Source: a virus (lineage: Duplodnaviria; Caudoviricetes). From it: DNA of 64,000 bases. The notes beneath the pieces were generated by a model. The model was given only the letters and a program-made list of their open reading frames with translations, ran no database searches and had not been told where the DNA came from. The DNA lies in IMG/VR virus record IMGVR_UViG_3300008262_000001. One strand, given 5' to 3'. The translations under genes were made by a program, and so were the position numbers. Below, piece by piece: positions 5,025-62,024 of this stretch (the stretch's first letter is position 1; each line of letters starts with the position of its first letter).

Positions 5025-5981
5025 CTATGCTTTATTTGCCATTTGTTGTAAAGTAAATATTAAGGCAAGCAAACTAACTACGGGATCAATAACAAGGTTC
5101 CTTTCAGCTTGGTATTTAGCAACTGTTATTATTATACCAGGAATCAAACCTGAGTTTTGTGGTTTTTTCTCTTGAATCCATCTTATAAAATCAGAGCTTA
5201 AAGATGTCATAACATCATCTGTTTTTGAAGAGTACTGCCCAACGATGTACTGGTAATTTTTTACAGGATCTGGTTTAGAAAAAATGAGCTCAAATACTTC
5301 TTCGTGGTCCCACAAAACCTCATTTATCTTTGATTCAGTTAGATCTTTAATCCCATCAATACTCCATCTTTGAATTGTGTTAAGTGCAGACCTCATGTCT
5401 GGAAAATACTTCTTCGTAAAAAGATCTAAATTCTTATCATCGTGCTCAATTTGAATTGCTGAAAGTATTTTGCTAACCCTTGACTTCCATTGATCTTGGA
5501 TTTCAACCTCTTCTTCTTTATTAATCGGATCAAAATCATAGAGTTCAAATCTTGATCTGATTGCTTCCGGAATTTTGTTTAGGTAGTTACAGGTGGCAAC
5601 GAATCTTGTACCTTTTGCATATTTTTCAATGGTTCCCCTTAAAGCCTTATAAAATTGTTCAGATGCACCATCAAACTCATCCAGGATTACAATCTTAGTC
5701 ATGTTCTCCCCGTCCATGATTGAGACAGTAGAACAGAAATCGTGAATTTTAGTTCTAATAGTCTCAACTGAACTTTCGTCAGAAACATTAATAAAAATGT
5801 GAGGATGGTTTTTCATCAGGATTTTTGCCATGCTGGTTTTTCCTGACCCTGGAGATCCCGATAAAAGCACATTTTGTTGTAAACCTCCTTCGAATGAATT
5901 CTTGATTCTATCCGGAAGGATCATGTGCTTTAATTCCTTCGGTCTGAGTTTCTCAGTTAATAATTCTTGTATCATTTGCAA
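5025..5981 (-). CDS. gp44: Clamp loader large subunit (T4 gp44 / RFC-like AAA+)
   Basis: EKLRPK, Walker A GSPGSGKT, Walker B ILDEFD, SRF, YFPDMRSALN; alternative start at 5975. Confidence 0.9.
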   Translation of the reverse strand: MQMIQELLTEKLRPKELKHMILPDRIKNSFEGGLQQNVLLSGSPGSGKTSMAKILMKNHPHIFINVSDESSVETIRTKIHDFCSTVSIMDGENMTKIVILDEFDGASEQFYKALRGTIEKYAKGTRFVATCNYLNKIPEAIRSRFELYDFDPINKEEEVEIQDQWKSRVSKILSAIQIEHDDKNLDLFTKKYFPDMRSALNTIQRWSIDGIKDLTESKINEVLWDHEEVFELIFSKPDPVKNYQYIVGQYSSKTDDVMTSLSSDFIRWIQEKKPQNSGLIPGIIITVAKYQAERNLVIDPVVSLLALIFTLQQMANKA

Positions 5982-7294
5982 TTTTCTGTAAAATCGTCTG
6001 CTAAAGTTTTATCGTTTCGTATTTCTATAAATCTTGGTAAGAATAATGACCAATTGTTGTTTTTGTCATTGATTATTACATTGTACTGAACTGAACATAT
6101 CTTACCGATGTGTTGATCTGGTTCAACACTCAATTCATGAAGATCGTTGTCAGTAAAACCAGATCCTATTTTTACCTTTAATATTCCGGTTTGATCCTCA
6201 CAAATAAACCCTCCTATAAATCCTTCTCTTTTTCCTTCTCCTGGGTACCAACCTTTAATTACTAAATCGCACTCGTTTACTTCTTTGAGTTTAATCCAAT
6301 TTTTTGATCTTTTACATTCGTAAACGTGATCTGGATTTTTAAGAATAACTCCTTCACCACCTTTACTAACTATATTTTTATAGTAACTATAGATGTCTTC
6401 TTTTTCTTTTGTAACAAATGATTCAGCCAATGTTACGGAATATGTTGGGGATTTTTCAAATACCCCTTCTAATGTTTGTCTCCTTATTTCAAAAGGAATT
6501 ACCCCCTTGCCTCTTTTCAGAGTTTCTGCATCTTCAAGATCAAAAACATTGAACATTAAATCATCACCTATAGAACTTGCAGGTTTTCCTTTGAGCATTT
6601 GGTTAACTTTTCCAGAAACACTTTTTCTATTTGAGTCTGTAAGTTCACCGTCTAAAAACCAATCGCCTTCTAATCCTGAATTTTTAATAAGAAGTTTACA
6701 TTCGTTTGCTATGACTGAAAGATATCCAGAAGAAATTTCATTGAAAGCCCTCGTGAAGAATTTAACTTCTTGTCCTGACACGAAAGCGATTATTCTAACT
6801 CCGTCATATTTTTCCTCACATATGATTTTCCCCCATTTGTTTATCTCTTTCTCATCGTCCTCTGCTAACATCAGACTAGGATCAGGTATAACTTCTCTTC
6901 CGAATGCCTTGTTGATTAATTTAGCTCCGATTCCTATATTCAATCTTTTGGTTAGGACCTTACCGAGCATTTTTCTTTCTTCAAAAGAAGCTTGAGTACA
7001 ATTAACTAGCTCAAAAGCCTCTTCTCGAAATTTGTCATTTGGTGCTGGTGCTTCAAAAAGTCTGCTTGTTAGATCTACAAACTTTTCGAATGCGTCATAT
7101 TGGACTAAATATGGACTTTCTTCTATGACTTCTAATTTGTGTAGTTTAGTGGTCAAAAAAGGATCTAAAGCAACTTTTAGCAAATACTCTAACTCTTTCG
7201 AGTAGTTGTTTTTAATGAGATCCTGTTTGATTTTTTGTGATCCCTCTCCAGTAGTAGATTCTATTTGTAGAAGGACAGAAAGTTCTTTTTGCAT
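5972..7294 (-). CDS. lig: ATP-dependent DNA ligase (T4 gp30-like)
   Basis: EKYDGVR, LDGEL, FNVFD, EGVILK, WIKLK, GSGFTD, LFLPRFIEIRNDK. Start placed at MQKELS (7294), downstream of a TAAATTTG element. Confidence 0.92.
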   Translation of the reverse strand: MQKELSVLLQIESTTGEGSQKIKQDLIKNNYSKELEYLLKVALDPFLTTKLHKLEVIEESPYLVQYDAFEKFVDLTSRLFEAPAPNDKFREEAFELVNCTQASFEERKMLGKVLTKRLNIGIGAKLINKAFGREVIPDPSLMLAEDDEKEINKWGKIICEEKYDGVRIIAFVSGQEVKFFTRAFNEISSGYLSVIANECKLLIKNSGLEGDWFLDGELTDSNRKSVSGKVNQMLKGKPASSIGDDLMFNVFDLEDAETLKRGKGVIPFEIRRQTLEGVFEKSPTYSVTLAESFVTKEKEDIYSYYKNIVSKGGEGVILKNPDHVYECKRSKNWIKLKEVNECDLVIKGWYPGEGKREGFIGGFICEDQTGILKVKIGSGFTDNDLHELSVEPDQHIGKICSVQYNVIINDKNNNWSLFLPRFIEIRNDKTLADDFTENCK

Positions 7295-7416: not shown

Positions 7417-9063
7417 TTATGCTTCTGCAGGTGGTGTTTCGGCAGCTGGAGTTTCTGTCGCAGGTGTTTCAGCAGCTGGAGTAGTTTCAGCTGGTGCTGC
7501 TCCCCCTTCTGTTGCTACACCAGAAGCTCCTTGACTTTTTTCAATGTAAGTTTTGTTCATCCTAATGTCATCATAGTTTAAATCCAAGAACCTTTCAATG
7601 AGGAAGTCTTGGTTGAAATATTGTACTTCTTCATCGTTTACATTTTCTTTGATTTCTCCCAATGATGTAACAAAATCGATTTTCTTAATAAGTTGCTCAA
7701 TTTCTCTGGATTCACCAAAAACATTGTCACTTTCGAACTTAACCCCTATTTGACTTCTAAATTCTGGGTCATTCTTAAGGCTTGGAAAATCTAAACACAT
7801 TTGAATCCAAAGGGGTTTAACAACAATCTCTTGGAATATAGACCTTAATCTTGTAACAAACTTTGAAAATCTTACTTCATCTCTTTCAGATCCATCTGCT
7901 GGGATTTTAAAAGGATTTCCAGCCCCAACCCCCCATCTTGCACTAAATCTATTGTAAGGTATTTTTGAATCCTGTCTGAGTTTGTTATAGAAATAAACAA
8001 CAGAATCCATAATGTTCAAGTTTGGCCCTTGAGCATTAATGGTTTCTACTTTAACACTATTCCCTGCTTGTTGAGGAAAAAGATAGTTTTTATAAAACTG
8101 TAAATCTGGTCTTCCATTAATAGCAAGTTCTCCTGATGTTGTATCGAGTTTAATATCCTCCTTGTAAACTGACATAAGCTCGCCAAGTGTCTCTTTTGCC
8201 TTTTGTGGTGACTTACTTCCGATAGGAACTGTCATTTTAATTCTAAACTGCGAGTTCATAACATTCCAGATAATCCTAGAATGCTCCATGATCTTTAACA
8301 AGTTATAAGATCTAATCAATCTTTCCGTATAAGATGTTCTTGATGCAGTGTTGGCCTTAGCATAAGATATGTAAATAACTTGGGCATCCAAAAGTCTTCT
8401 TTGTCTTGTAGTTTCACCATAGTATTGCCACCAGATAGATTCTCTTGTGCCATCGGGTCTTTTTTCAACTGCAGGGGTTAAACTTGTTGCATCGAGTTCT
8501 TTGAATCCCACAATTTCTTTACCATCGCTAGAGTATATGATCTCAAAAGCAAGAAACCCTTCAACTAAAAGTTGTCTGAAATATTGCCAACCAGTTAACC
8601 CATTGGCAAAATTATGAAGTACATAAAGTTTTCTGAAGTTCTTCCTAAGCGCTTGTACCACATCCTCCTTTAAATCCATATTAATCATGCTAGGATGACA
8701 AAAGAAGTTTTTCTCATCGTACACTATGGCTTCATCACAAATAGTGTCTAGAATGTATTCTATTTCAGCATTGAGGGCAAACGTTCTTAAGAAATCTCTT
8801 TTGTAAGGATAGTCTTTATCAAAATAAGCGATATATTTCCTATTAGATGTGTCTTGAGCAGCTATACTATAAATGAAATCTTCGTCATCCTCAGAAAAAC
8901 CGAATCTTTCCCTCATATTGGCTTCAGATATACCAATAGCCATAGAGTCTTGAATCACAAGATCTTTGTAATCCATTCCAAAGCTTCCTAACCCGCTGAG
9001 ATTTTTAATAATCCTCGATATGTTGGGATTGAATTTTCCTAAGTTATCTATAAATCCAGCCAT
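7417..9063 (-). CDS. gp20: Portal protein, paralogue 1 (T4 gp20-like)
   Basis: EIEYILDTICDEAIV, FRQLLVEG, RLIRSYNLLKIMEHSRIIW, KAKETLGELMSVYK, RDEVRFSKFVTRLR follow the gp20 motif order. Confidence 0.85.
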   Translation of the reverse strand: MAGFIDNLGKFNPNISRIIKNLSGLGSFGMDYKDLVIQDSMAIGISEANMRERFGFSEDDEDFIYSIAAQDTSNRKYIAYFDKDYPYKRDFLRTFALNAEIEYILDTICDEAIVYDEKNFFCHPSMINMDLKEDVVQALRKNFRKLYVLHNFANGLTGWQYFRQLLVEGFLAFEIIYSSDGKEIVGFKELDATSLTPAVEKRPDGTRESIWWQYYGETTRQRRLLDAQVIYISYAKANTASRTSYTERLIRSYNLLKIMEHSRIIWNVMNSQFRIKMTVPIGSKSPQKAKETLGELMSVYKEDIKLDTTSGELAINGRPDLQFYKNYLFPQQAGNSVKVETINAQGPNLNIMDSVVYFYNKLRQDSKIPYNRFSARWGVGAGNPFKIPADGSERDEVRFSKFVTRLRSIFQEIVVKPLWIQMCLDFPSLKNDPEFRSQIGVKFESDNVFGESREIEQLIKKIDFVTSLGEIKENVNDEEVQYFNQDFLIERFLDLNYDDIRMNKTYIEKSQGASGVATEGGAAPAETTPAAETPATETPAAETPPAEA

Positions 9064-57178: not shown

Positions 57179-57262
57179 TACCCGGGACGGGAATCGAACC
57201 CGTACAACCAAATGGTTACAGCATTTTAAGTGCTGCGTGACTACCAATTCCACCACCCGGGC
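57179..57262 (-). tRNA. tRNA-Leu(UAA)
   Basis: GCCCGGG acceptor; anticodon arm CAGCA-CTTAAAA-TGCTG; long variable arm; GGTTCGATT T-loop. Confidence 0.95.
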
Positions 57263-57265
57263 AAA

Positions 57266-57341
57266 TGGTCGAGACAATGAGACTTGAACTCATAGCCTTG
57301 ATCGTATAAGGATCCTGCTCTTACCATTGAGCTATGTCTCG
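57266..57341 (-). tRNA. tRNA-Ile(UAU), CCA encoded
   Basis: CGAGACA/TGTCTCG acceptor; D arm GCTC-AATGGTAA-GAGC; GATC-CTTATAC-GATC anticodon arm; TTCAAGT T-loop; ACCA 3' end. Confidence 0.92.
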
Positions 57342-57353
57342 ATTTTAAAAATG

Positions 57354-57428
57354 TGTTCCCTGTAGGGATCGAACCTACGACCTACGGTTTATGAGACCGT
57401 TGCTACTAACCAACTGAGCTAAGGGAAC
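57354..57428 (-). tRNA. tRNA with CAU anticodon (elongator Met or lysidine-modified Ile2)
   Basis: GTTCCCT/AGGGAAC acceptor; ACGGT-CTCATAA-ACCGT; lacks initiator features (no three G-C pairs, no C1:A72). Confidence 0.9.
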
Positions 57429-57429
57429 T

Positions 57430-58080
57430 TTATGATAAATATTTTGTGGGAATTTCATATATTCCTCTTCTTATCTGTTCAATCTCCTCTTTTTTGATTA
57501 TTATAAGATTATTTACGCATTTCCACTTTTCTCTATCACGATCTCTTTCATAGCCTTTTACCTCGATATAAGCATCAATTTTTGGCAAATAAAAATCAGG
57601 AAAATAGTAATGAATATTCCCTATCCAAAAATAGTCGAATGGTTTTGTAATTTTATTTGTCCATTGTATTTCATGAATGTCGAGCCATTTTGCTACATCT
57701 AGCTCCCATTTTCCTTTAAGCTTAAATCCCTTATATTCAAAAATTTTAGTTCTACCTGAAACGTTATTAGCTGAATAAGAGTGTGGGTTTTCAAGAACTG
57801 TTTTTTTCATTTTTTCTGAATGCTTTTTTTTCCTTTCAAGTGTCCATTTTTCACCCTTTTTAGAGTCTGATATTTTTTTTCTGGTTTCTTGGGCTAATAA
57901 AGGAAATGAGAGCCCCATTTCTTTAGATTTTATATATTGATTGGAAGCATTAGATTTTTTTCCAAACATTGGGTTATTTTCTCCAGCTTTACTCTTTCTT
58001 TCTGGATTCATTTTGCAATAAGACTCGTGATTTTTTAATCCAAATATATTTTTATCTTCTTTACAATATTTACAATTCAT
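57430..58080 (-). mobile_element. Free-standing homing endonuclease inside the tRNA operon (NUMOD3-like repeats plus PD-(D/E)xK domain)
   Basis: GENNPMFGK, ETRKKISDSKKG, YFPDFYLP..DAYIEVKG. Confidence 0.75.
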
Positions 58081-58100
58081 ACTAAACTATATATAAAAAG

Positions 58101-58172
58101 TACCCCTGGCGGGAATCGAACCCACATTTTGAGATTAGAAGTCACATGTTCTATCCGTTGAACTACGGGGGC
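58101..58172 (-). tRNA. tRNA-Arg(UCU)
   Basis: GCCCCCG acceptor; TGTGA-CTTCTAA-TCTCA anticodon arm; GGTTCGATT T-loop. Confidence 0.93.
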
Positions 58173-59296: not shown

Positions 59297-60919
59297 TCAG
59301 GATTCTATAGAATCCCAAATGTCAATAATTGCTTTTGCAAAGACAGGTTCTTTTCCTGTCCAACCTGATAAAATTGCACCTCTATAAAGATTTTCTGGAA
59401 GAACTGAATTATCGTATCCAGCAACCTGAACAGAGAAGACATTTACTTTAGGATTCACCTTCTTTCTGTAAACTTCAACCATCTTTAAAACATCTACGTG
59501 TGTGGATGAACTAGTTGTTCCATAAGGAGATCTGCCAACAGTGTTTGAAAATCCGAAAAGACCACCGTGTCCCGCTTGCATATCAGAGTAAATGAAGACC
59601 GTATCGTAGTGAATCTTTTCTGTGATGGCTTGATCCCAAAATACCCAAATACCATTCTCAGTAGATCCCCCTTGCATTTTTCCTCTTTGTGATGTCTCTT
59701 CCAGTTGTGTGAGTAGACCATTTCTTTTAGAGATCTCTTCTAATGAAAGTTTATCACCAAAAACACCAACAAGACCTTGGTCTGCTTGCATTGCAGTAAT
59801 TAAAGAAGAAAGGTTTGCAATTTCTGCTACGGTAACTGATCCATATTCACTCTGACAAGATCCCCAAGCAGAACCTGAATTGTCAGACAGACAAGCAACT
59901 TTACCCTTAAGCTTAGGCATATTTGCTACTGCTATATCTAAGCATTCTTCTAAAGCATCAAGTATTAGTCTTTTGTTGTTTACTTCTTCTGAAGACTTAA
60001 CTGCTTTATAAGCTGACCAATATCTAAATGGGAATTGCTTTCCTTTCAAAACTCCAGATTTTAATCCATCTAGAATTTTAACGGTGGTATCAAGATCTGA
60101 TATCTCTTTGAAAATTCCTCTTAGGTTTTTCAGAAGAGCCATATGAGGAACTGTAATTTGCTTCAAAATCTCTTGCCAGTTTTTACCTGCAGACTTAAGA
60201 CTTTCCCAGGTCATTTCAGTTTCTAAAATATTGAGCTTACCAGTTGTCATAAGCTCACTGATGTCATCATTAGAAGCATGAGATATTCTTACTAGGTCAA
60301 TGAGTTTTTTGCCCTTGTACTTGTTGAGCTGATATCTGCTATACTCTTCTAATCTTTCCGCCCATGTACGTTTAATTAAGGATGGAAGCTTTGATTTTGT
60401 TCCATTCTTAAACATGTAATAGTCAAACTGGTTAGTTAAGTCATCAGGTCTTTCTGCAATTTTCTTCCCGATGTTTTTCATATAACCAGGATTCATCTCA
60501 TTAAAAGATTTCCTGCTCTCGTGAGAAAGTGCCCTAACAAATATAACCGAAGGGTTTAATCTCATAAGATATTCAGTCCTGAGTTCTAGGGCTAAGTCCA
60601 ATGTAGCTTGGAAATCAAAAGAAAGCGAATTGTCGATTGCCTGCTCAAAAACATCCACTGCAGATCTTTTATCTTTGAATAGATCCGGGAAAATTGAATG
60701 GTCTATAATCGTAGAGATATTTTTGATTGTAGCATTAGAATTGATCCCATCCCGATAATATTGAGGTTCTCCAAAAATCGAAGAAGCTGCTACAATTTTC
60801 AATGTTTGTAAAGGAGAAATCTTGTAAGATGTTCCTGACATGAAATTCTGAACTTTGTCTCCAGAGTTTTTTCTAGACAAAGCTGTTTCTTTAATACCAA
60901 ATTCGCTTAATTTAGACAT
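59297..60919 (-). CDS. rsr: Ro60/TROVE-domain RNA-binding protein with vWA domain
   Basis: SSIFGEPQYY, LRTEYLMRLNP, RPDDL, MTWE, VPHMALLKNLR, QFPFRYWSAY, vWA MIDAS LSDNSGS, FIYSDMQ, VQVAGY. Confidence 0.92.
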   Translation of the reverse strand: MSKLSEFGIKETALSRKNSGDKVQNFMSGTSYKISPLQTLKIVAASSIFGEPQYYRDGINSNATIKNISTIIDHSIFPDLFKDKRSAVDVFEQAIDNSLSFDFQATLDLALELRTEYLMRLNPSVIFVRALSHESRKSFNEMNPGYMKNIGKKIAERPDDLTNQFDYYMFKNGTKSKLPSLIKRTWAERLEEYSRYQLNKYKGKKLIDLVRISHASNDDISELMTTGKLNILETEMTWESLKSAGKNWQEILKQITVPHMALLKNLRGIFKEISDLDTTVKILDGLKSGVLKGKQFPFRYWSAYKAVKSSEEVNNKRLILDALEECLDIAVANMPKLKGKVACLSDNSGSAWGSCQSEYGSVTVAEIANLSSLITAMQADQGLVGVFGDKLSLEEISKRNGLLTQLEETSQRGKMQGGSTENGIWVFWDQAITEKIHYDTVFIYSDMQAGHGGLFGFSNTVGRSPYGTTSSSTHVDVLKMVEVYRKKVNPKVNVFSVQVAGYDNSVLPENLYRGAILSGWTGKEPVFAKAIIDIWDSIES

Positions 60920-60945
60920 GAGAGTTGTGGTTTAAATTACACAAT

Positions 60946-60987
60946 AAAAAAGGATCTAGAATGTGAAAAATCTCACACTTAGATCCC
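60946..60987 (-). terminator. Intrinsic terminator between the Y-like RNAs and the Ro60 start
   Basis: GGATCTA..TGTGA-loop-TCACA..TAGATCC followed by TTTTTT, ~27 nt before the ATG. Confidence 0.7.
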
Positions 60988-61026
60988 AGAATTTTTATGA
61001 CTATTGCTAGTCTTTAAAAAAAATCC

Positions 61027-61086
61027 GAGAATATTAGTTTTGGGTTTTTTTCGATAATAAGTGAAGTATCCCAAAACACCGCTTCA
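61027..61086 (-). ncRNA. Short Y-RNA-like element (60 nt)
   Basis: TGAAGCGGT-GTTTTG-GGATACTTCAC...CCCAAAAC-TAATA-TTCTC; 8-bp terminal helix; adjacent to Ro60. Confidence 0.55.
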
Positions 61087-61110
61087 GATTTAGTTATTTC
61101 TTTGTTTCTT

Positions 61111-61315
61111 GAGAAATCTTTAAAAGGGATTGCTAATTACGTTAGCTAGTCGTACCCTAATTTCTAGGCCGGTATAATGACCCGATCTACTGTGGTTTTC
61201 CTTTGCAGGCGTTTTTTCTGTAGCACTACTAAAACCTTTGTGCCTTGTACTAATCTTGGGGATTAATACTCAGCTTTTTTTGCGTAATTGTGGAGTATCC
61301 TTCTAAACCGCTTCA
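61111..61315 (-). ncRNA. Long Y-RNA-like element (205 nt) with a multi-hairpin insert
   Basis: TGAAGCGGT-TTAGAA-GGATACTCCAC...ATCCCTTTTAAA-GAT-TTCTC; inner helices AATTACG/CGTAATT, GTATTAATC/GATTAGTAC, CCTA/TAGG. Confidence 0.6.
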
Positions 61316-61378
61316 AGAAAAAAAGAATAAGAAATGAAAGAACGTTTTATTTTGATACCGCTAATGTAATACAAAGTT

Positions 61379-61693
61379 TCAATTTAGATTCTCCTGGAGG
61401 AAAATTTTTATTTGATCTTCTGATTTTACTCCTGAAAATCTAGCAACTTCTTTACCCTCACTGGTGATCACACATGTTGGAATATTTTTAATTCCAAACT
61501 TTTTAGTTGTTAGTTGAGCCTCTCCAACATCTGCCTTTACGAAATTGAAATCGTTTTGAAATTCTTCTGACACTTTCTCCAATGTTGGTTTTATAATTTT
61601 GCAAGGTCCACACCAATCTGCAGAAAATAGGATAAAAGATTTCTGTGAAGAATCAATTACTTTTTCTAGTTCTTGGTCTTTAAGACTATTCAT
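61379..61693 (-). CDS. trxA: Thioredoxin
   Basis: FSADWCGPCK, FGIKNIPT; start moved to MNSLKD. Confidence 0.92.
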   Translation of the reverse strand: MNSLKDQELEKVIDSSQKSFILFSADWCGPCKIIKPTLEKVSEEFQNDFNFVKADVGEAQLTTKKFGIKNIPTCVITSEGKEVARFSGVKSEDQIKIFLQENLN

Positions 61694-61748
61694 TTTGTTT
61701 GAGTTATTTAGTAGTCTATATAACCTCAAAGACTTTGAACTTCAATCT

Positions 61749-62024
61749 TTATTCACTTATTTTTTCGTCAATTTCACTTAAAGACGGACCTGATAAATCG
61801 ATTTCACTACTTGGATTTACGTTTAATTTTTTTGTGAAATCGCTAGATATTTCTAATGATTCATTTTCCGATCTAATCTCAGAAACTGCACCTCCTTCTG
61901 AAGATTTATTTTGGCTTTGAATCATCTCCATGAGTTTTTTCATCTTAGTTTTTGACAAGCCTTTTGGTTTAGGTGTATGTTTTACCTTTTTACCATTTTT
62001 CTTTCTTACTCTACTTTTAGGCAT
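61749..62024 (-). CDS. Small protein with a basic N-terminus
   Basis: MPKSRVRKKNGKKVK. Confidence 0.5.
   Translation of the reverse strand: MPKSRVRKKNGKKVKHTPKPKGLSKTKMKKLMEMIQSQNKSSEGGAVSEIRSENESLEISSDFTKKLNVNPSSEIDLSGPSLSEIDEKISE

What the first reader, a model, noticed from the sequence alone, without database searches (positions are those of the whole stretch)
60946..61380. Two Y-RNA-like structured RNAs with covarying terminal helices upstream of phage Ro60
Seen: two elements share TGAAGCGGT-N6-GGATACTYCAC at the 5' end and TTCTC at the 3' end. The variable N6 changes together with the 3' partner (GTTTTGGG/CCCAAAAC versus TTTAGAAGG/CCCTTTTAAA), which is compensatory pairing. One encloses a short A-rich loop (60 nt total). 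The other encloses a ~150-nt multi-hairpin domain that is not an obvious tRNA mimic. A GAAAC-N18-TATCAA promoter-like site lies upstream. Established: bacterial and phage Ro60 (Rsr) genes are usually flanked by Y RNAs, with Ro bound to a terminal helix and an effector domain (tRNA-like in YrlA). Inference: this is a divergent Y RNA pair with a non-YrlA effector module; the canonical bacterial GNCGAA motif is not evident.
Basis: partly seen in the sequence, partly recalled or inferred. Interest (0 to 1): 0.75.

Follow-up and report, generated by a model that had tools for sequence, protein, structure and literature searches.

The report
Phage Ro60 gene with Y RNAs
A large freshwater phage encodes, just ahead of its Ro60-type RNA-binding ring protein, two small structured RNAs that carry the same "handle" as known bacterial and phage Y RNAs (YrlA); one of them replaces the usual tRNA look-alike with a different 150-base domain, so this is a real but only moderately novel member of a known protein-RNA system.

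Summary
Two minus-strand elements, A (61320-61105) and B (61091-21), share a terminal stem, an internal loop (AGCGG / AUAUUC), a second stem and a single-stranded GWUACWUC motif. Both stems covary.

A covariance model of the handle finds 113 copies in 49 related viral loci. All lie on the strand of the TROVE gene and beside it. It also finds 66 copies in bacterial or MAG loci (63 on that strand) and five tandem copies upstream of Bacillus phage G gp540.

The neighbouring protein folds as Ro60; its best PDB match is the Thermus phage phiLo Ro60. In phage G the same handle encloses a YrlA-type tRNA-like domain that Rfam RF02553 detects. The handle is therefore the YrlA-type handle that published work assigns to Ro60 binding.

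Neither window RNA has a tRNA-like domain:
- B is YrlB-like.
- A carries a clade-specific multi-helix domain.

Two metatranscriptomes from different studies hold contigs only over A (61077-61272).

A conserved promoter precedes A, and a conserved terminator lies between B and the Ro60 start codon.

Ro60 binding was not tested.

This scan has noted Ro60-like/Y-like systems on other phage DNA before.

The parts
61352..61382 (-). Promoter-like site TTGAAAC-N18-TATCAA. Its -35 element overlaps the thioredoxin stop codon. A conserved ACGUUCUUU leader follows at 61344-61336.
   Evidence: Sequence. TTGAAAC-N17/18-TAT.A. (TTGACA in L024/L027/L029), followed by ACGTTCTT, is conserved upstream of the A-type RNA in most of the 23 relatives inspected. 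GAAAC-N17-18-TATNAW occurs 7 times on the minus strand of the window and 0 times on the plus strand. The generic sigma-70 scan found nothing.
61105..61320 (-). Y-like RNA A, 216 nt. It consists of a handle plus an effector domain of about 150 nt. Handle: terminal stem 61320-61313/61112-61105, 5' loop AGCGG 61312-61308, stem 2 61307-61299/61127-61119, 3' loop GAUUUC 61118-61113, and the motif AUACUCCAC 61298-61290. The terminal stem can extend to about 15 bp with one mismatch.
   Evidence: Aligned with 15 orthologues (A3); both handle stems covary. R1 scores only the 5' half (22 bits) because the insert is long.
61132..61274 (-). Effector domain of A. It contains a variable hairpin P3 (61274-61242), helix P4 (61224-61220 with 61190-61186), a conserved single-stranded CUAGAAAU segment, and hairpin P7 (61146-61142 with 61136-61132, loop CGUAA). 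The rest of the fold is unresolved. It is not tRNA-like.
   Evidence: RNAalifold and an exhaustive helix scan on A3 show P4 and P7 each with 5 of 5 covarying pairs. An nhmmer profile of the inner domain finds it only in the close clade. No Rfam family reaches E <= 10 above noise.
61077..61272 (.). The stretch held by contigs in two metatranscriptome runs of different studies (61077-61272 and 61101-61271, both 100% identical). Those runs have no contig on the Ro60 or thioredoxin genes within 60000-62000.
   Evidence: tables 2 and 8. The DNA runs laid alongside cover the flanks. The strand and the true RNA ends cannot be read from contigs.
61021..61091 (-). Y-like RNA B, 71 nt (YrlB-like). Terminal stem 61091-61084/61028-61021, 5' loop AGCGGU 61083-61078, stem 2 61077-61070/61044-61037, motif AUACUUCAC 61069-61061, an A-rich apical loop, and 3' loop UAAUAUUC 61036-61029. 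A U-run follows at 61020-61016.
   Evidence: R1 scores 71.3 bits, E 3e-16. The MFE structure equals the centroid, z = -2.9. Covariation.
60999..61012 (-). Small hairpin GACUA-GCAA-UAGUC between B and the terminator.
   Evidence: Fold. A comparable small hairpin lies at this position in L001, L037 and L008. Its function is unknown.
60945..60987 (-). Intrinsic terminator: a 16-bp hairpin followed by a U-run, ending about 25 nt before the Ro60 ATG.
   Evidence: Fold -24.7 kcal/mol, z = -4.5. A hairpin plus U-run sits in the same place in nearly all relatives checked. The simple terminator scan missed it because the stem has a bulge.
59297..60919 (-). Ro60 (TROVE + vWA) gene, 540 aa: the presumed protein partner.
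   Evidence: Pfam TROVE E 3e-7. phrog_850 'RNA-binding protein' E 6e-44. AlphaFold2 model with pLDDT 80 and pTM 0.78. The top 13 Foldseek PDB hits are all Ro60: 9kop/9l5y phiLo Ro60 with TM 0.65/0.74, 2nvo Rsr and 1yvp Xenopus Ro. It is 50% identical to Bacillus phage G gp540.

Best explanation
The region is a small transcription unit: a conserved promoter, then RNA A, RNA B, a small hairpin and a terminator. It makes two non-coding Y RNAs for the phage's own Ro60 protein, which is encoded immediately downstream.

Both RNAs carry the same handle. It consists of a 5'/3' terminal stem, an asymmetric internal loop with conserved AGCGG on the 5' side and AUAUUC on the 3' side, a second stem, and a single-stranded GWUACWUC motif. 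This is the YrlA-type handle. By analogy with Xenopus, Deinococcus and Thermus phage phiLo particles, Ro60 would bind it (inferred).

The distal part is the variable effector module:
- B has only an A-rich loop, like YrlB. It would act as a plain Ro60 ligand or gate.
- A has a clade-specific domain of about 150 nt with at least three helices. It would tether Ro60 to some other factor (inferred; partner unknown).

The terminator 25 nt before the Ro60 ATG makes the RNAs far more abundant than the Ro60 mRNA, which would be made mainly by read-through (inferred).

What is shown: the structure, its conservation, the linkage to Ro60 genes, the identity of the handle with that of the phage G RNA detected by the Rfam YrlA model, and presence in RNA libraries. 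What is inferred: Ro60 binding, the role of the effector domain, and processing.
For: (1) Ro60 fold of the neighbouring ORF.

(2) Handle covariation: 15 of 17 and 17 of 17 pairs with double changes, 87-88% paired against 40-53% in slid controls. G-U pairs outnumber A-C mismatches 22 to 8 on the Ro60 strand.

(3) Linkage:
- 113 R1 hits at E <= 1 in 49 viral loci plus the window, all on the Ro60 strand. At E <= 0.01, 44 of the 46 loci that have upstream flank carry a hit.
- The hits are upstream of the gene in close relatives and downstream in distant ones.
- In five whole phage records the hits cluster at the Ro60 locus.
- In bacterial and MAG loci, 63 of 66 hits are on the Ro60 strand beside the gene.
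- A reverse search by RNA pattern recovers Ro60 genes in 26 of 36 loci with a true module.

(4) Bacillus phage G has five tandem modules in the unannotated 1-kb gap upstream of gp540. One further module has the identical handle enclosing a T arm, a closed acceptor-like stem and a D arm. RF02553 YrlA detects it at 36 bits. The YrlA-like RNAs of CcrColossus carry GGCGUAG-N7-UUACUUCG.

(5) Published precedent:
- YrlA/YrlB sit next to rsr on the same strand, with the GNCGAAN0-1G motif and a YUAY element (PMC4201824).
- Two Y-like RNAs upstream of the Thermus phage phiLo Ro60 gene bind that protein in vitro (PMC12135203).

(6) Contigs from two metatranscriptomes of different studies cover only RNA A.

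(7) The promoter and terminator are conserved. There is no ORF of 40 aa or more on that strand in the region.
Against: - No binding data exist for this protein-RNA pair.
- The Rfam YrlA and Y_RNA models do not hit the window, even at E <= 10.
- The window has UGAAG rather than the published CGAA.
- True modules also occur inside tRNA arrays on contigs with no Ro60 gene. Those contigs are only 5-45% complete, so a Ro60-independent role is not excluded.
- Contigs from RNA libraries cannot give the strand or true ends. The RNA contigs lack the first 48 nt of A (61320-61273), which include the 5' strand of the handle. This may be an assembly break or a processing site.
- B was not seen in any listed RNA run.
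Confidence: 0.8

Rival explanations
1. The modules are tRNA-operon small RNAs released by RNase P and 3' processing of neighbouring tRNAs. Their partner or function would be something other than Ro60, for example a tRNA-processing or tRNA-repair factor or a decoy. Their proximity to Ro60 would then only reflect Ro60 genes lying next to phage tRNA clusters.
For: - In 10 of the 14 loci with true modules and no Ro60 gene in the fetched piece, ARAGORN was run. In seven of these the modules sit inside tRNA arrays on the same strand, 1-5 nt from at least one adjacent tRNA (L055, L056, L066, L069, L091, L115, L124). L071, L111 and L112 hold no tRNA gene.
- Several distant relatives embed complete, unpermuted tRNA-like sequences in the handle, with the tRNA model scoring 36-59 bits.
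- The window itself has four tRNAs about 1.1 kb downstream of Ro60.
Against: - All Ro60-less contigs are fragments, 5-45% complete.
- In the five whole phage records scanned (81-100% complete where CheckV gives an estimate; the cultured phage G genome among them), modules cluster at Ro60 rather than being spread over the tRNA arrays.
- In the window and close relatives the modules have their own promoter and terminator and are not flanked by tRNAs.
- The handle equals that of the phage G RNA that Rfam YrlA detects.
Confidence: 0.1
2. The elements are a cis-acting 5' leader, such as an attenuator or riboswitch-like structure, that controls Ro60 mRNA synthesis rather than free-standing RNAs.
For: They lie between a promoter and the Ro60 ATG. 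A terminator sits about 25 nt before the start codon, and no separate Ro60 promoter is evident.
Against: - In relatives with about 50% Ro60 identity the modules lie downstream of Ro60 (L032-L036, L043, L045, L047) or kilobases away in tRNA arrays.
- Copy number varies from 1 to 6.
- No alternative anti-terminator pairing was found.
- RNA contigs cover A but not the Ro60 ORF.
Confidence: 0.04
3. The elements are DNA-level repeats, such as protein-binding or recombination sites, rather than RNA.
For: There are two direct copies of a 26-nt motif with a variable spacer.
Against: - The compensatory changes preserve pairing with partners 40-200 nt away.
- G-U pairs outnumber A-C mismatches on one strand.
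- All hits are strand-specific.
- The region is present in RNA libraries.
Confidence: 0.01

Closest known systems
YrlA / YrlB Y RNAs of bacteria and phages (Chen et al. 2014, PMC4201824; Rfam RF02553), including the YrlA-like RNA of Bacillus phage G
   Same: - They are encoded beside a Ro60 gene on the same strand, often in tandem.
- The 5' and 3' ends pair into a long stem with an internal loop.
- The 5'-strand motif YGAAG corresponds to GNCGAAN0-1G, and UUAC corresponds to YUAY.
- The window's handle is nearly identical to that of the phage G RNA that RF02553 detects.
- B matches the YrlB idea of a handle without a tRNA-like part.
   Different: - Neither window RNA has the T arm, closed acceptor stem and D arm that define YrlA. 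RF02553 gives no hit at E <= 10.
- A carries a different domain of about 150 nt, found only in the close clade.
- The 3' side of the internal loop (AUAUUC) is also conserved here, whereas published work stresses conservation of the 5' strand only (10.1101/312249).
Thermus phage phiLo Ro60 with Yrl1 and Yrl2 (PMC12135203; PDB 9KOP, 9L5Y)
   Same: - It is a phage Ro60, and the best structural match of the window's protein (TM 0.65/0.74).
- Two Y-like RNA genes lie directly upstream of the gene.
- The RNAs have a stem-bulge-stem layout with a CGAA-type motif.
   Different: - Protein identity is about 20%.
- I did not compare the phiLo RNA sequences.
- The phiLo RNAs were shown to bind Ro60 and the host PNPase; nothing of that kind is known here.
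Deinococcus radiodurans Yrn1 and metazoan Y RNAs
   Same: They are modular: a Ro60-binding stem formed by the RNA ends plus a distal effector module that tethers another protein (PNPase for Yrn1).
   Different: There is no detectable sequence or Rfam similarity. The motifs, effector domains and transcription differ.

Membership tests
Y RNA (Ro60-associated ncRNA, bacterial/phage sense) | Encoded within about 4 kb of a Ro60/TROVE gene, on the same strand | tested here: met
   A and B lie 100-400 nt upstream of the Ro60 ATG on the minus strand. The same arrangement is seen in 44 of the 46 viral loci that have flank and in 45 of 80 genome/MAG loci.
Y RNA (Ro60-associated ncRNA, bacterial/phage sense) | The neighbouring protein is a true Ro60 (HEAT-repeat ring plus vWA domain) | tested here: met
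   AlphaFold2 model with pLDDT 80. The top 13 PDB hits are all Ro60, E 1e-13 to 4e-9.
Y RNA (Ro60-associated ncRNA, bacterial/phage sense) | A long stem formed by the 5' and 3' ends, interrupted by a bulge or internal loop | tested here: met
   There are two stems separated by a conserved asymmetric loop. 17 of 17 pairs covary in 48 modules.
Y RNA (Ro60-associated ncRNA, bacterial/phage sense) | Conserved 5'-strand motif GNCGAAN0-1G / CGAA | tested here: inconclusive
   The window has CUUGAAG and UCUGAAG. In 48 modules the C/U position is U in 24 and C in 18, and it pairs with a compensating base. GGCGAAG occurs in L033, L034 and L036. The phage G RNA detected by RF02553 also has UGAAG.
Y RNA (Ro60-associated ncRNA, bacterial/phage sense) | Binds Ro60 | not testable with these tools
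   No RNA-protein prediction or assay was available.
Y RNA (Ro60-associated ncRNA, bacterial/phage sense) | Accumulates as a discrete stable small RNA | tested here: inconclusive
   Contigs in two metatranscriptomes cover only 61077-61272 of the 2 kb laid. Contigs cannot give ends or strand. No RNA holder was listed for B.
YrlA (Rfam RF02553) | Scores with the RF02553 covariance model (gathering score 69 bits) | tested here: not met
   No RF02553 hit in 60800-61500 at E <= 10 or in the window at gathering score. Positive controls: CcrColossus 42 bits and phage G 36 bits.
YrlA (Rfam RF02553) | tRNA-like effector domain (T arm, closed acceptor-like stem, D arm) | tested here: not met
   No tRNA or YrlA model hit. 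No T-loop sequence is present in A or B. ARAGORN-type tRNAs in the window lie only at 57179-58172.
YrlA (Rfam RF02553) | YrlA-type Ro60-binding handle with a following YUAY element | tested here: met
   The window's handle matches the handle of the phage G RNA detected by RF02553: UGAAGCGG-N9-GUUACUUCG ... AAUAAUCUCA. UUAC/AUAC corresponds to YUAY (PMC4201824).
Cis-regulatory leader of the Ro60 mRNA | Fixed position in the 5' UTR of the regulated gene | tested here: not met
   Modules lie downstream of Ro60 or inside tRNA arrays in many relatives.

The most novel reading that the evidence does not exclude
The YrlA-type handle may be a general 'Ro60 docking cassette' that large phages fuse to interchangeable cargo. 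The cargo would be a novel 150-nt domain in this clade, permuted tRNA mimics in phage G, and complete unpermuted tRNAs (repeatedly tRNA-Lys-UUU-like) in more distant relatives. If so, the phage Ro60 would be loaded onto phage tRNA precursors or tRNA decoys inside tRNA operons, for example to shield or repair them during attack by host anticodon nucleases. RNA A would then recruit Ro60 to a partner not yet known for any Y RNA.
Probability: 0.15. Interest if true: 0.8.

Novelty: new variant of a known kind. Interest (0 to 1): 0.55.

Why it matters
Ro60-Y RNA particles are conserved from bacteria to humans, yet what their effector modules do is understood for very few of them.

This locus adds three things:
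- A well-supported handle consensus, backed by roughly 180 model hits (E <= 1 in the viral loci, E <= 0.01 in the genome/MAG loci). It links uncultured freshwater and gut phage RNAs to YrlA and is not captured by the Rfam model.
- An abundant Y RNA whose effector domain is not a tRNA mimic. This implies a different tethered partner.
- Relatives in which the same handle carries whole tRNAs or sits between tRNA genes.

It gives a defined RNA set for testing what phage Ro60 does during infection. Bacillus phage G, which is cultured and has a known host, carries seven copies.

The core claim, that phage Ro60 genes come with Y RNAs, was already published in 2014 and 2025.

Tried and rejected
- Rfam at gathering score over the whole window found only four tRNAs. 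At E <= 10 over 60800-61500 it found only noise such as RAGATH-27 and snoRNA models.
- phmmer of the protein against PDB sequences found no Ro60. NCBIfam found nothing. The fold search was needed.
- The generic sigma-70 and terminator scans found nothing in 60850-61800. The promoter and terminator were identified by conservation and folding instead.
- No whole genome is held for the window, so a genome-wide module count for this phage was impossible.
- For the B/terminator stretch (60936-61100) no RNA holder was listed.
- R1 found no match in the Nitratidesulfovibrio phage SRB7757 or Vibrio phage phiKT1024 loci. It found only weak same-strand hits beside the TROVE genes of crAss001, CcrColossus and a 635-kb uncultured phage. 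The model does not reach all phage Ro60 clades.
- About 30 of the 80 listed pattern-scan loci were chance matches without module structure.
- I tried to read the inner domain of A as a permuted tRNA, a T-loop or a sarcin-ricin-like motif by eye. No reading was consistent across the alignment, so I dropped them.
- The supplementary tables of Chen et al. 2014 and the 2020 Annual Review were not held. I could therefore not check which phage G RNAs were already listed.
- No complex-prediction job was sent; the tool does not take RNA.

Full report
**Observation**

All genes in this part of the window run on the minus strand. A thioredoxin gene lies at 61729-61379 and a 540-aa ORF at 60919-59297. 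The 460 nt between them hold no ORF of 40 aa or more on that strand.

The motif TGAAGCGGT-N6-GGATACTYCAC occurs exactly twice in the 64 kb, at 61315-61290 and 61086-61061. None was expected by chance.

Each copy has a 3' partner that builds two stems:
- In A (61320-61105), UUUCUUGA pairs with UCAAGAAA, and UUUAGAAGG pairs with CCUUUUAAA.
- In B (61091-61021), AAAUCUGA pairs with UCGGAUUU, and GUUUUGGG pairs with CCCAAAAC.

An asymmetric internal loop separates the stems: AGCGG(U) on the 5' side and (UAAU)AUUC or GAUUUC on the 3' side. The conserved single-stranded motif AUACUYCAC follows stem 2. Between A and B, both stems differ by compensating changes.

**The protein**

- Pfam sees only a short TROVE match (E 3e-7).
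- PDB sequences and NCBIfam give nothing.
- PHROG 850, 'RNA-binding protein', matches over the full length (E 6e-44).
- An AlphaFold2 model built on 23 homologues has pLDDT 80 and pTM 0.78.
- Its 13 best Foldseek matches in the PDB are all Ro60. The Thermus phage phiLo Ro60 comes first (TM 0.65/0.74), then Deinococcus Rsr and Xenopus and human Ro60.

The protein is a Ro60. The closest cultured relative is gp540 of Bacillus phage G, at 50% identity.

**Conservation and covariation**

A search with the protein gave 49 related viral loci. The GAAGCGG motif recurs 1-4 times beside the gene on its strand.

- Fourteen short modules aligned by MAFFT pair in 87% of cells, against 40-53% when the partners are slid. 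Fifteen of 17 pairs carry double changes.
- A covariance model of the handle (R1) found 113 matches at E <= 1 in the loci and window, every one on the Ro60 strand. The window holds only the two known sites.
- In 48 model-aligned modules all 17 pairs show double changes.
- G-U pairs outnumber A-C mismatches 22 to 8. This fits an RNA read from the Ro60 strand.
- In close relatives the modules lie upstream of Ro60. In relatives with about 50% protein identity they lie downstream.
- In five whole phage records they cluster around the Ro60 locus.
- In 80 bacterial or MAG loci encoding this Ro60 clade, R1 found 66 matches at E <= 0.01. Sixty-three are on the gene's strand and next to it. The nearest of these loci are a Crocinitomicaceae MAG at 64% identity and Flavobacterium sp. 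9AF at 53%.

**Link to the known family**

Rfam 15 contains YrlA (RF02553). It does not hit the window, even at E <= 10.

R1 finds five tandem modules in the unannotated 1-kb gap upstream of phage G gp540. It also finds a seventh, weaker match at L050 7825-7676. That match overlaps a sub-threshold RF02553 hit (36 bits).

Read directly, this phage G RNA is CCUGAAGCGG-N9-GUUACUUCG, then a T arm, a closed acceptor-like stem-loop and a D arm, then AAUAAUCUCAGG. That is a textbook YrlA with exactly the window's handle.

The YrlA-like RNAs of CcrColossus (RF02553, up to 42 bits) have GGCGUAG-N7-UUACUUCG.

Chen et al. describe YrlA and YrlB as sharing GNCGAAN0-1G near the 5' end, with a conserved YUAY after it (PMC4201824). 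Here these are YGAAG and UUAC/AUAC. The window's RNAs therefore carry the YrlA-type Ro60-binding handle.

The Thermus phage phiLo paper shows two such RNAs upstream of a phage Ro60 gene that bind the protein and the host PNPase (PMC12135203).

**Effector modules**

B has only a 22-nt A-rich loop, so it is YrlB-like.

A encloses about 150 nt. An alignment of 16 orthologues supports the following features by covariation:
- a variable hairpin;
- a helix at 61224-61220/61190-61186;
- a hairpin at 61146-61142/61136-61132 with a CGUAA loop.

Conserved single-stranded blocks include AGUACUGCUAYAG and CUAGAAAU.

No tRNA or YrlA model matches this domain. A sequence profile of the inner domain finds it only in the close clade. 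More distant relatives show looser similarity by eye. The rest of its fold is unresolved.

**Transcription**

- Upstream of A a promoter-like TTGAAAC-N18-TATCAA overlaps the thioredoxin stop codon. It and a following ACGUUCUUU are conserved in relatives.
- After B come a small hairpin and a strong hairpin plus U-run at 60987-60945 (z = -4.5).
- A terminator sits at this place, about 25-40 nt before the Ro60 ATG, in nearly all relatives checked.

The RNAs therefore form their own unit, and Ro60 mRNA probably depends on read-through.

Two metatranscriptome runs from different studies each hold one contig on the 2 kb laid, at 61077-61272 and 61101-61271, both identical to the window. They have nothing on the Ro60 or thioredoxin genes. 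DNA runs cover the flanks. This fits an abundant stable RNA A. Contigs cannot give the strand or true ends. The shared stop at 61271/61272, at the base of the first inner hairpin, is only a weak hint of a processing site and could be an assembly break in a conserved region.

**Rivals**

A reverse search by RNA pattern gave 36 loci with true modules:
- 26 have Ro60 in the fetched piece.
- In 14 loci R1 confirmed true modules but the fetched piece holds no Ro60 gene. Four of these were missed by my stem scanner, so they fall outside the 36. Ten of the contigs were scanned whole, and one of them encodes Ro60 elsewhere.
- tRNA genes were sought in ten of the 14. In seven the modules sit inside tRNA arrays, 1-5 nt from at least one adjacent tRNA; three hold no tRNA gene.
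- All nine contigs without Ro60 are fragments, 5-45% complete.

A Ro60-independent, tRNA-operon role is therefore not excluded, and I give it about 10%.

A cis-regulatory leader is unlikely, because the position relative to Ro60 is not fixed. DNA-level repeats are excluded by the RNA-type covariation.

**Verdict**

This is a real Y RNA pair of the YrlA/YrlB type beside a phage Ro60. It is a known kind of system. B is an ordinary new member. A is a new variant, with a non-tRNA effector domain.

This scan has noted Ro60-like proteins with Y-like RNAs in other phage genomes before. Those notes were not used as evidence, except that one supplied the Rfam accession, which I then tested myself.

Noticed in passing
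L032:4848-5112, L033:4609-4997, L034:4715-5081, L036:1798-2046, L045:5166-5517: In relatives with about 50% Ro60 identity, the same handle encloses complete, unpermuted tRNA-like sequences. The Rfam tRNA model scores them 36-59 bits. ARAGORN calls five of them tRNA-Lys(UUU), plus Ser, Thr, Leu and a UUA 'stop' anticodon. In several of these the GWUACWUC motif forms the 5' acceptor strand, and stem 2 stacks on the acceptor stem. This topology differs from the permuted tRNA mimic of YrlA.
   Followed up: partly
L056:5537-5616, L066:1313-1392, L069:14311-14381, L091:5908-5986 and 6380-6519, L115:9527-9605, L124:7172-7250, L055:4572-4661: Handle modules sit between tRNA genes in phage tRNA arrays, 1-5 nt from at least one adjacent tRNA on the same strand, on contig fragments without a Ro60 gene. 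This suggests they are released by tRNA processing.
   Followed up: partly
L050 (Bacillus phage G NC_023719) 5673-6352 minus strand; also 181-247 and 7676-7825: The 1,060-nt gap upstream of gp540 (TROVE) has no annotation in the record, yet it holds five tandem handle modules. Two more lie nearby, and one of those is YrlA-like. Phage G is a cultured system in which the family could be tested.
   Followed up: partly
L151 (Bacteroides phage crAss001 MH675552) 5907-6078: Two weak same-strand R1 matches (20.5 and 15 bits) share UUACUUCA. They lie in a 900-nt unannotated gap directly downstream of the TROVE gene gp96.
   Followed up: no
window 60945-60987 and 60917-60944: The terminator ends only about 25 nt before the Ro60 ATG, and no separate promoter is visible. 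How Ro60 is expressed is open: terminator read-through or a near-leaderless transcript are possibilities.
   Followed up: no
window 61271-61272: The RNA-library contigs of two different studies both stop here, at the base of the first inner hairpin of A and just after an A7 run. This could be a processing site that removes the 5' strand of the handle, or an assembly break.
   Followed up: no
window minus strand 61380, 58366, 49610, 47566, 44996, 22410, 19450: GAAAC-N17-18-TATNAW occurs seven times on the minus strand and never on the plus strand. It is probably a phage promoter class.
   Followed up: partly
L035:881-1524; L048:793-1150: A ROOL RNA (284 bits) and a tmRNA (161 bits) lie in the tRNA/Ro60 neighbourhood of two related viral contigs.
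   Followed up: no
window 57430-58080 minus strand: An ORF with a NUMOD3 motif, typical of homing endonucleases, sits between the phage tRNA genes at 57179-57428 and 58101-58172.
   Followed up: no
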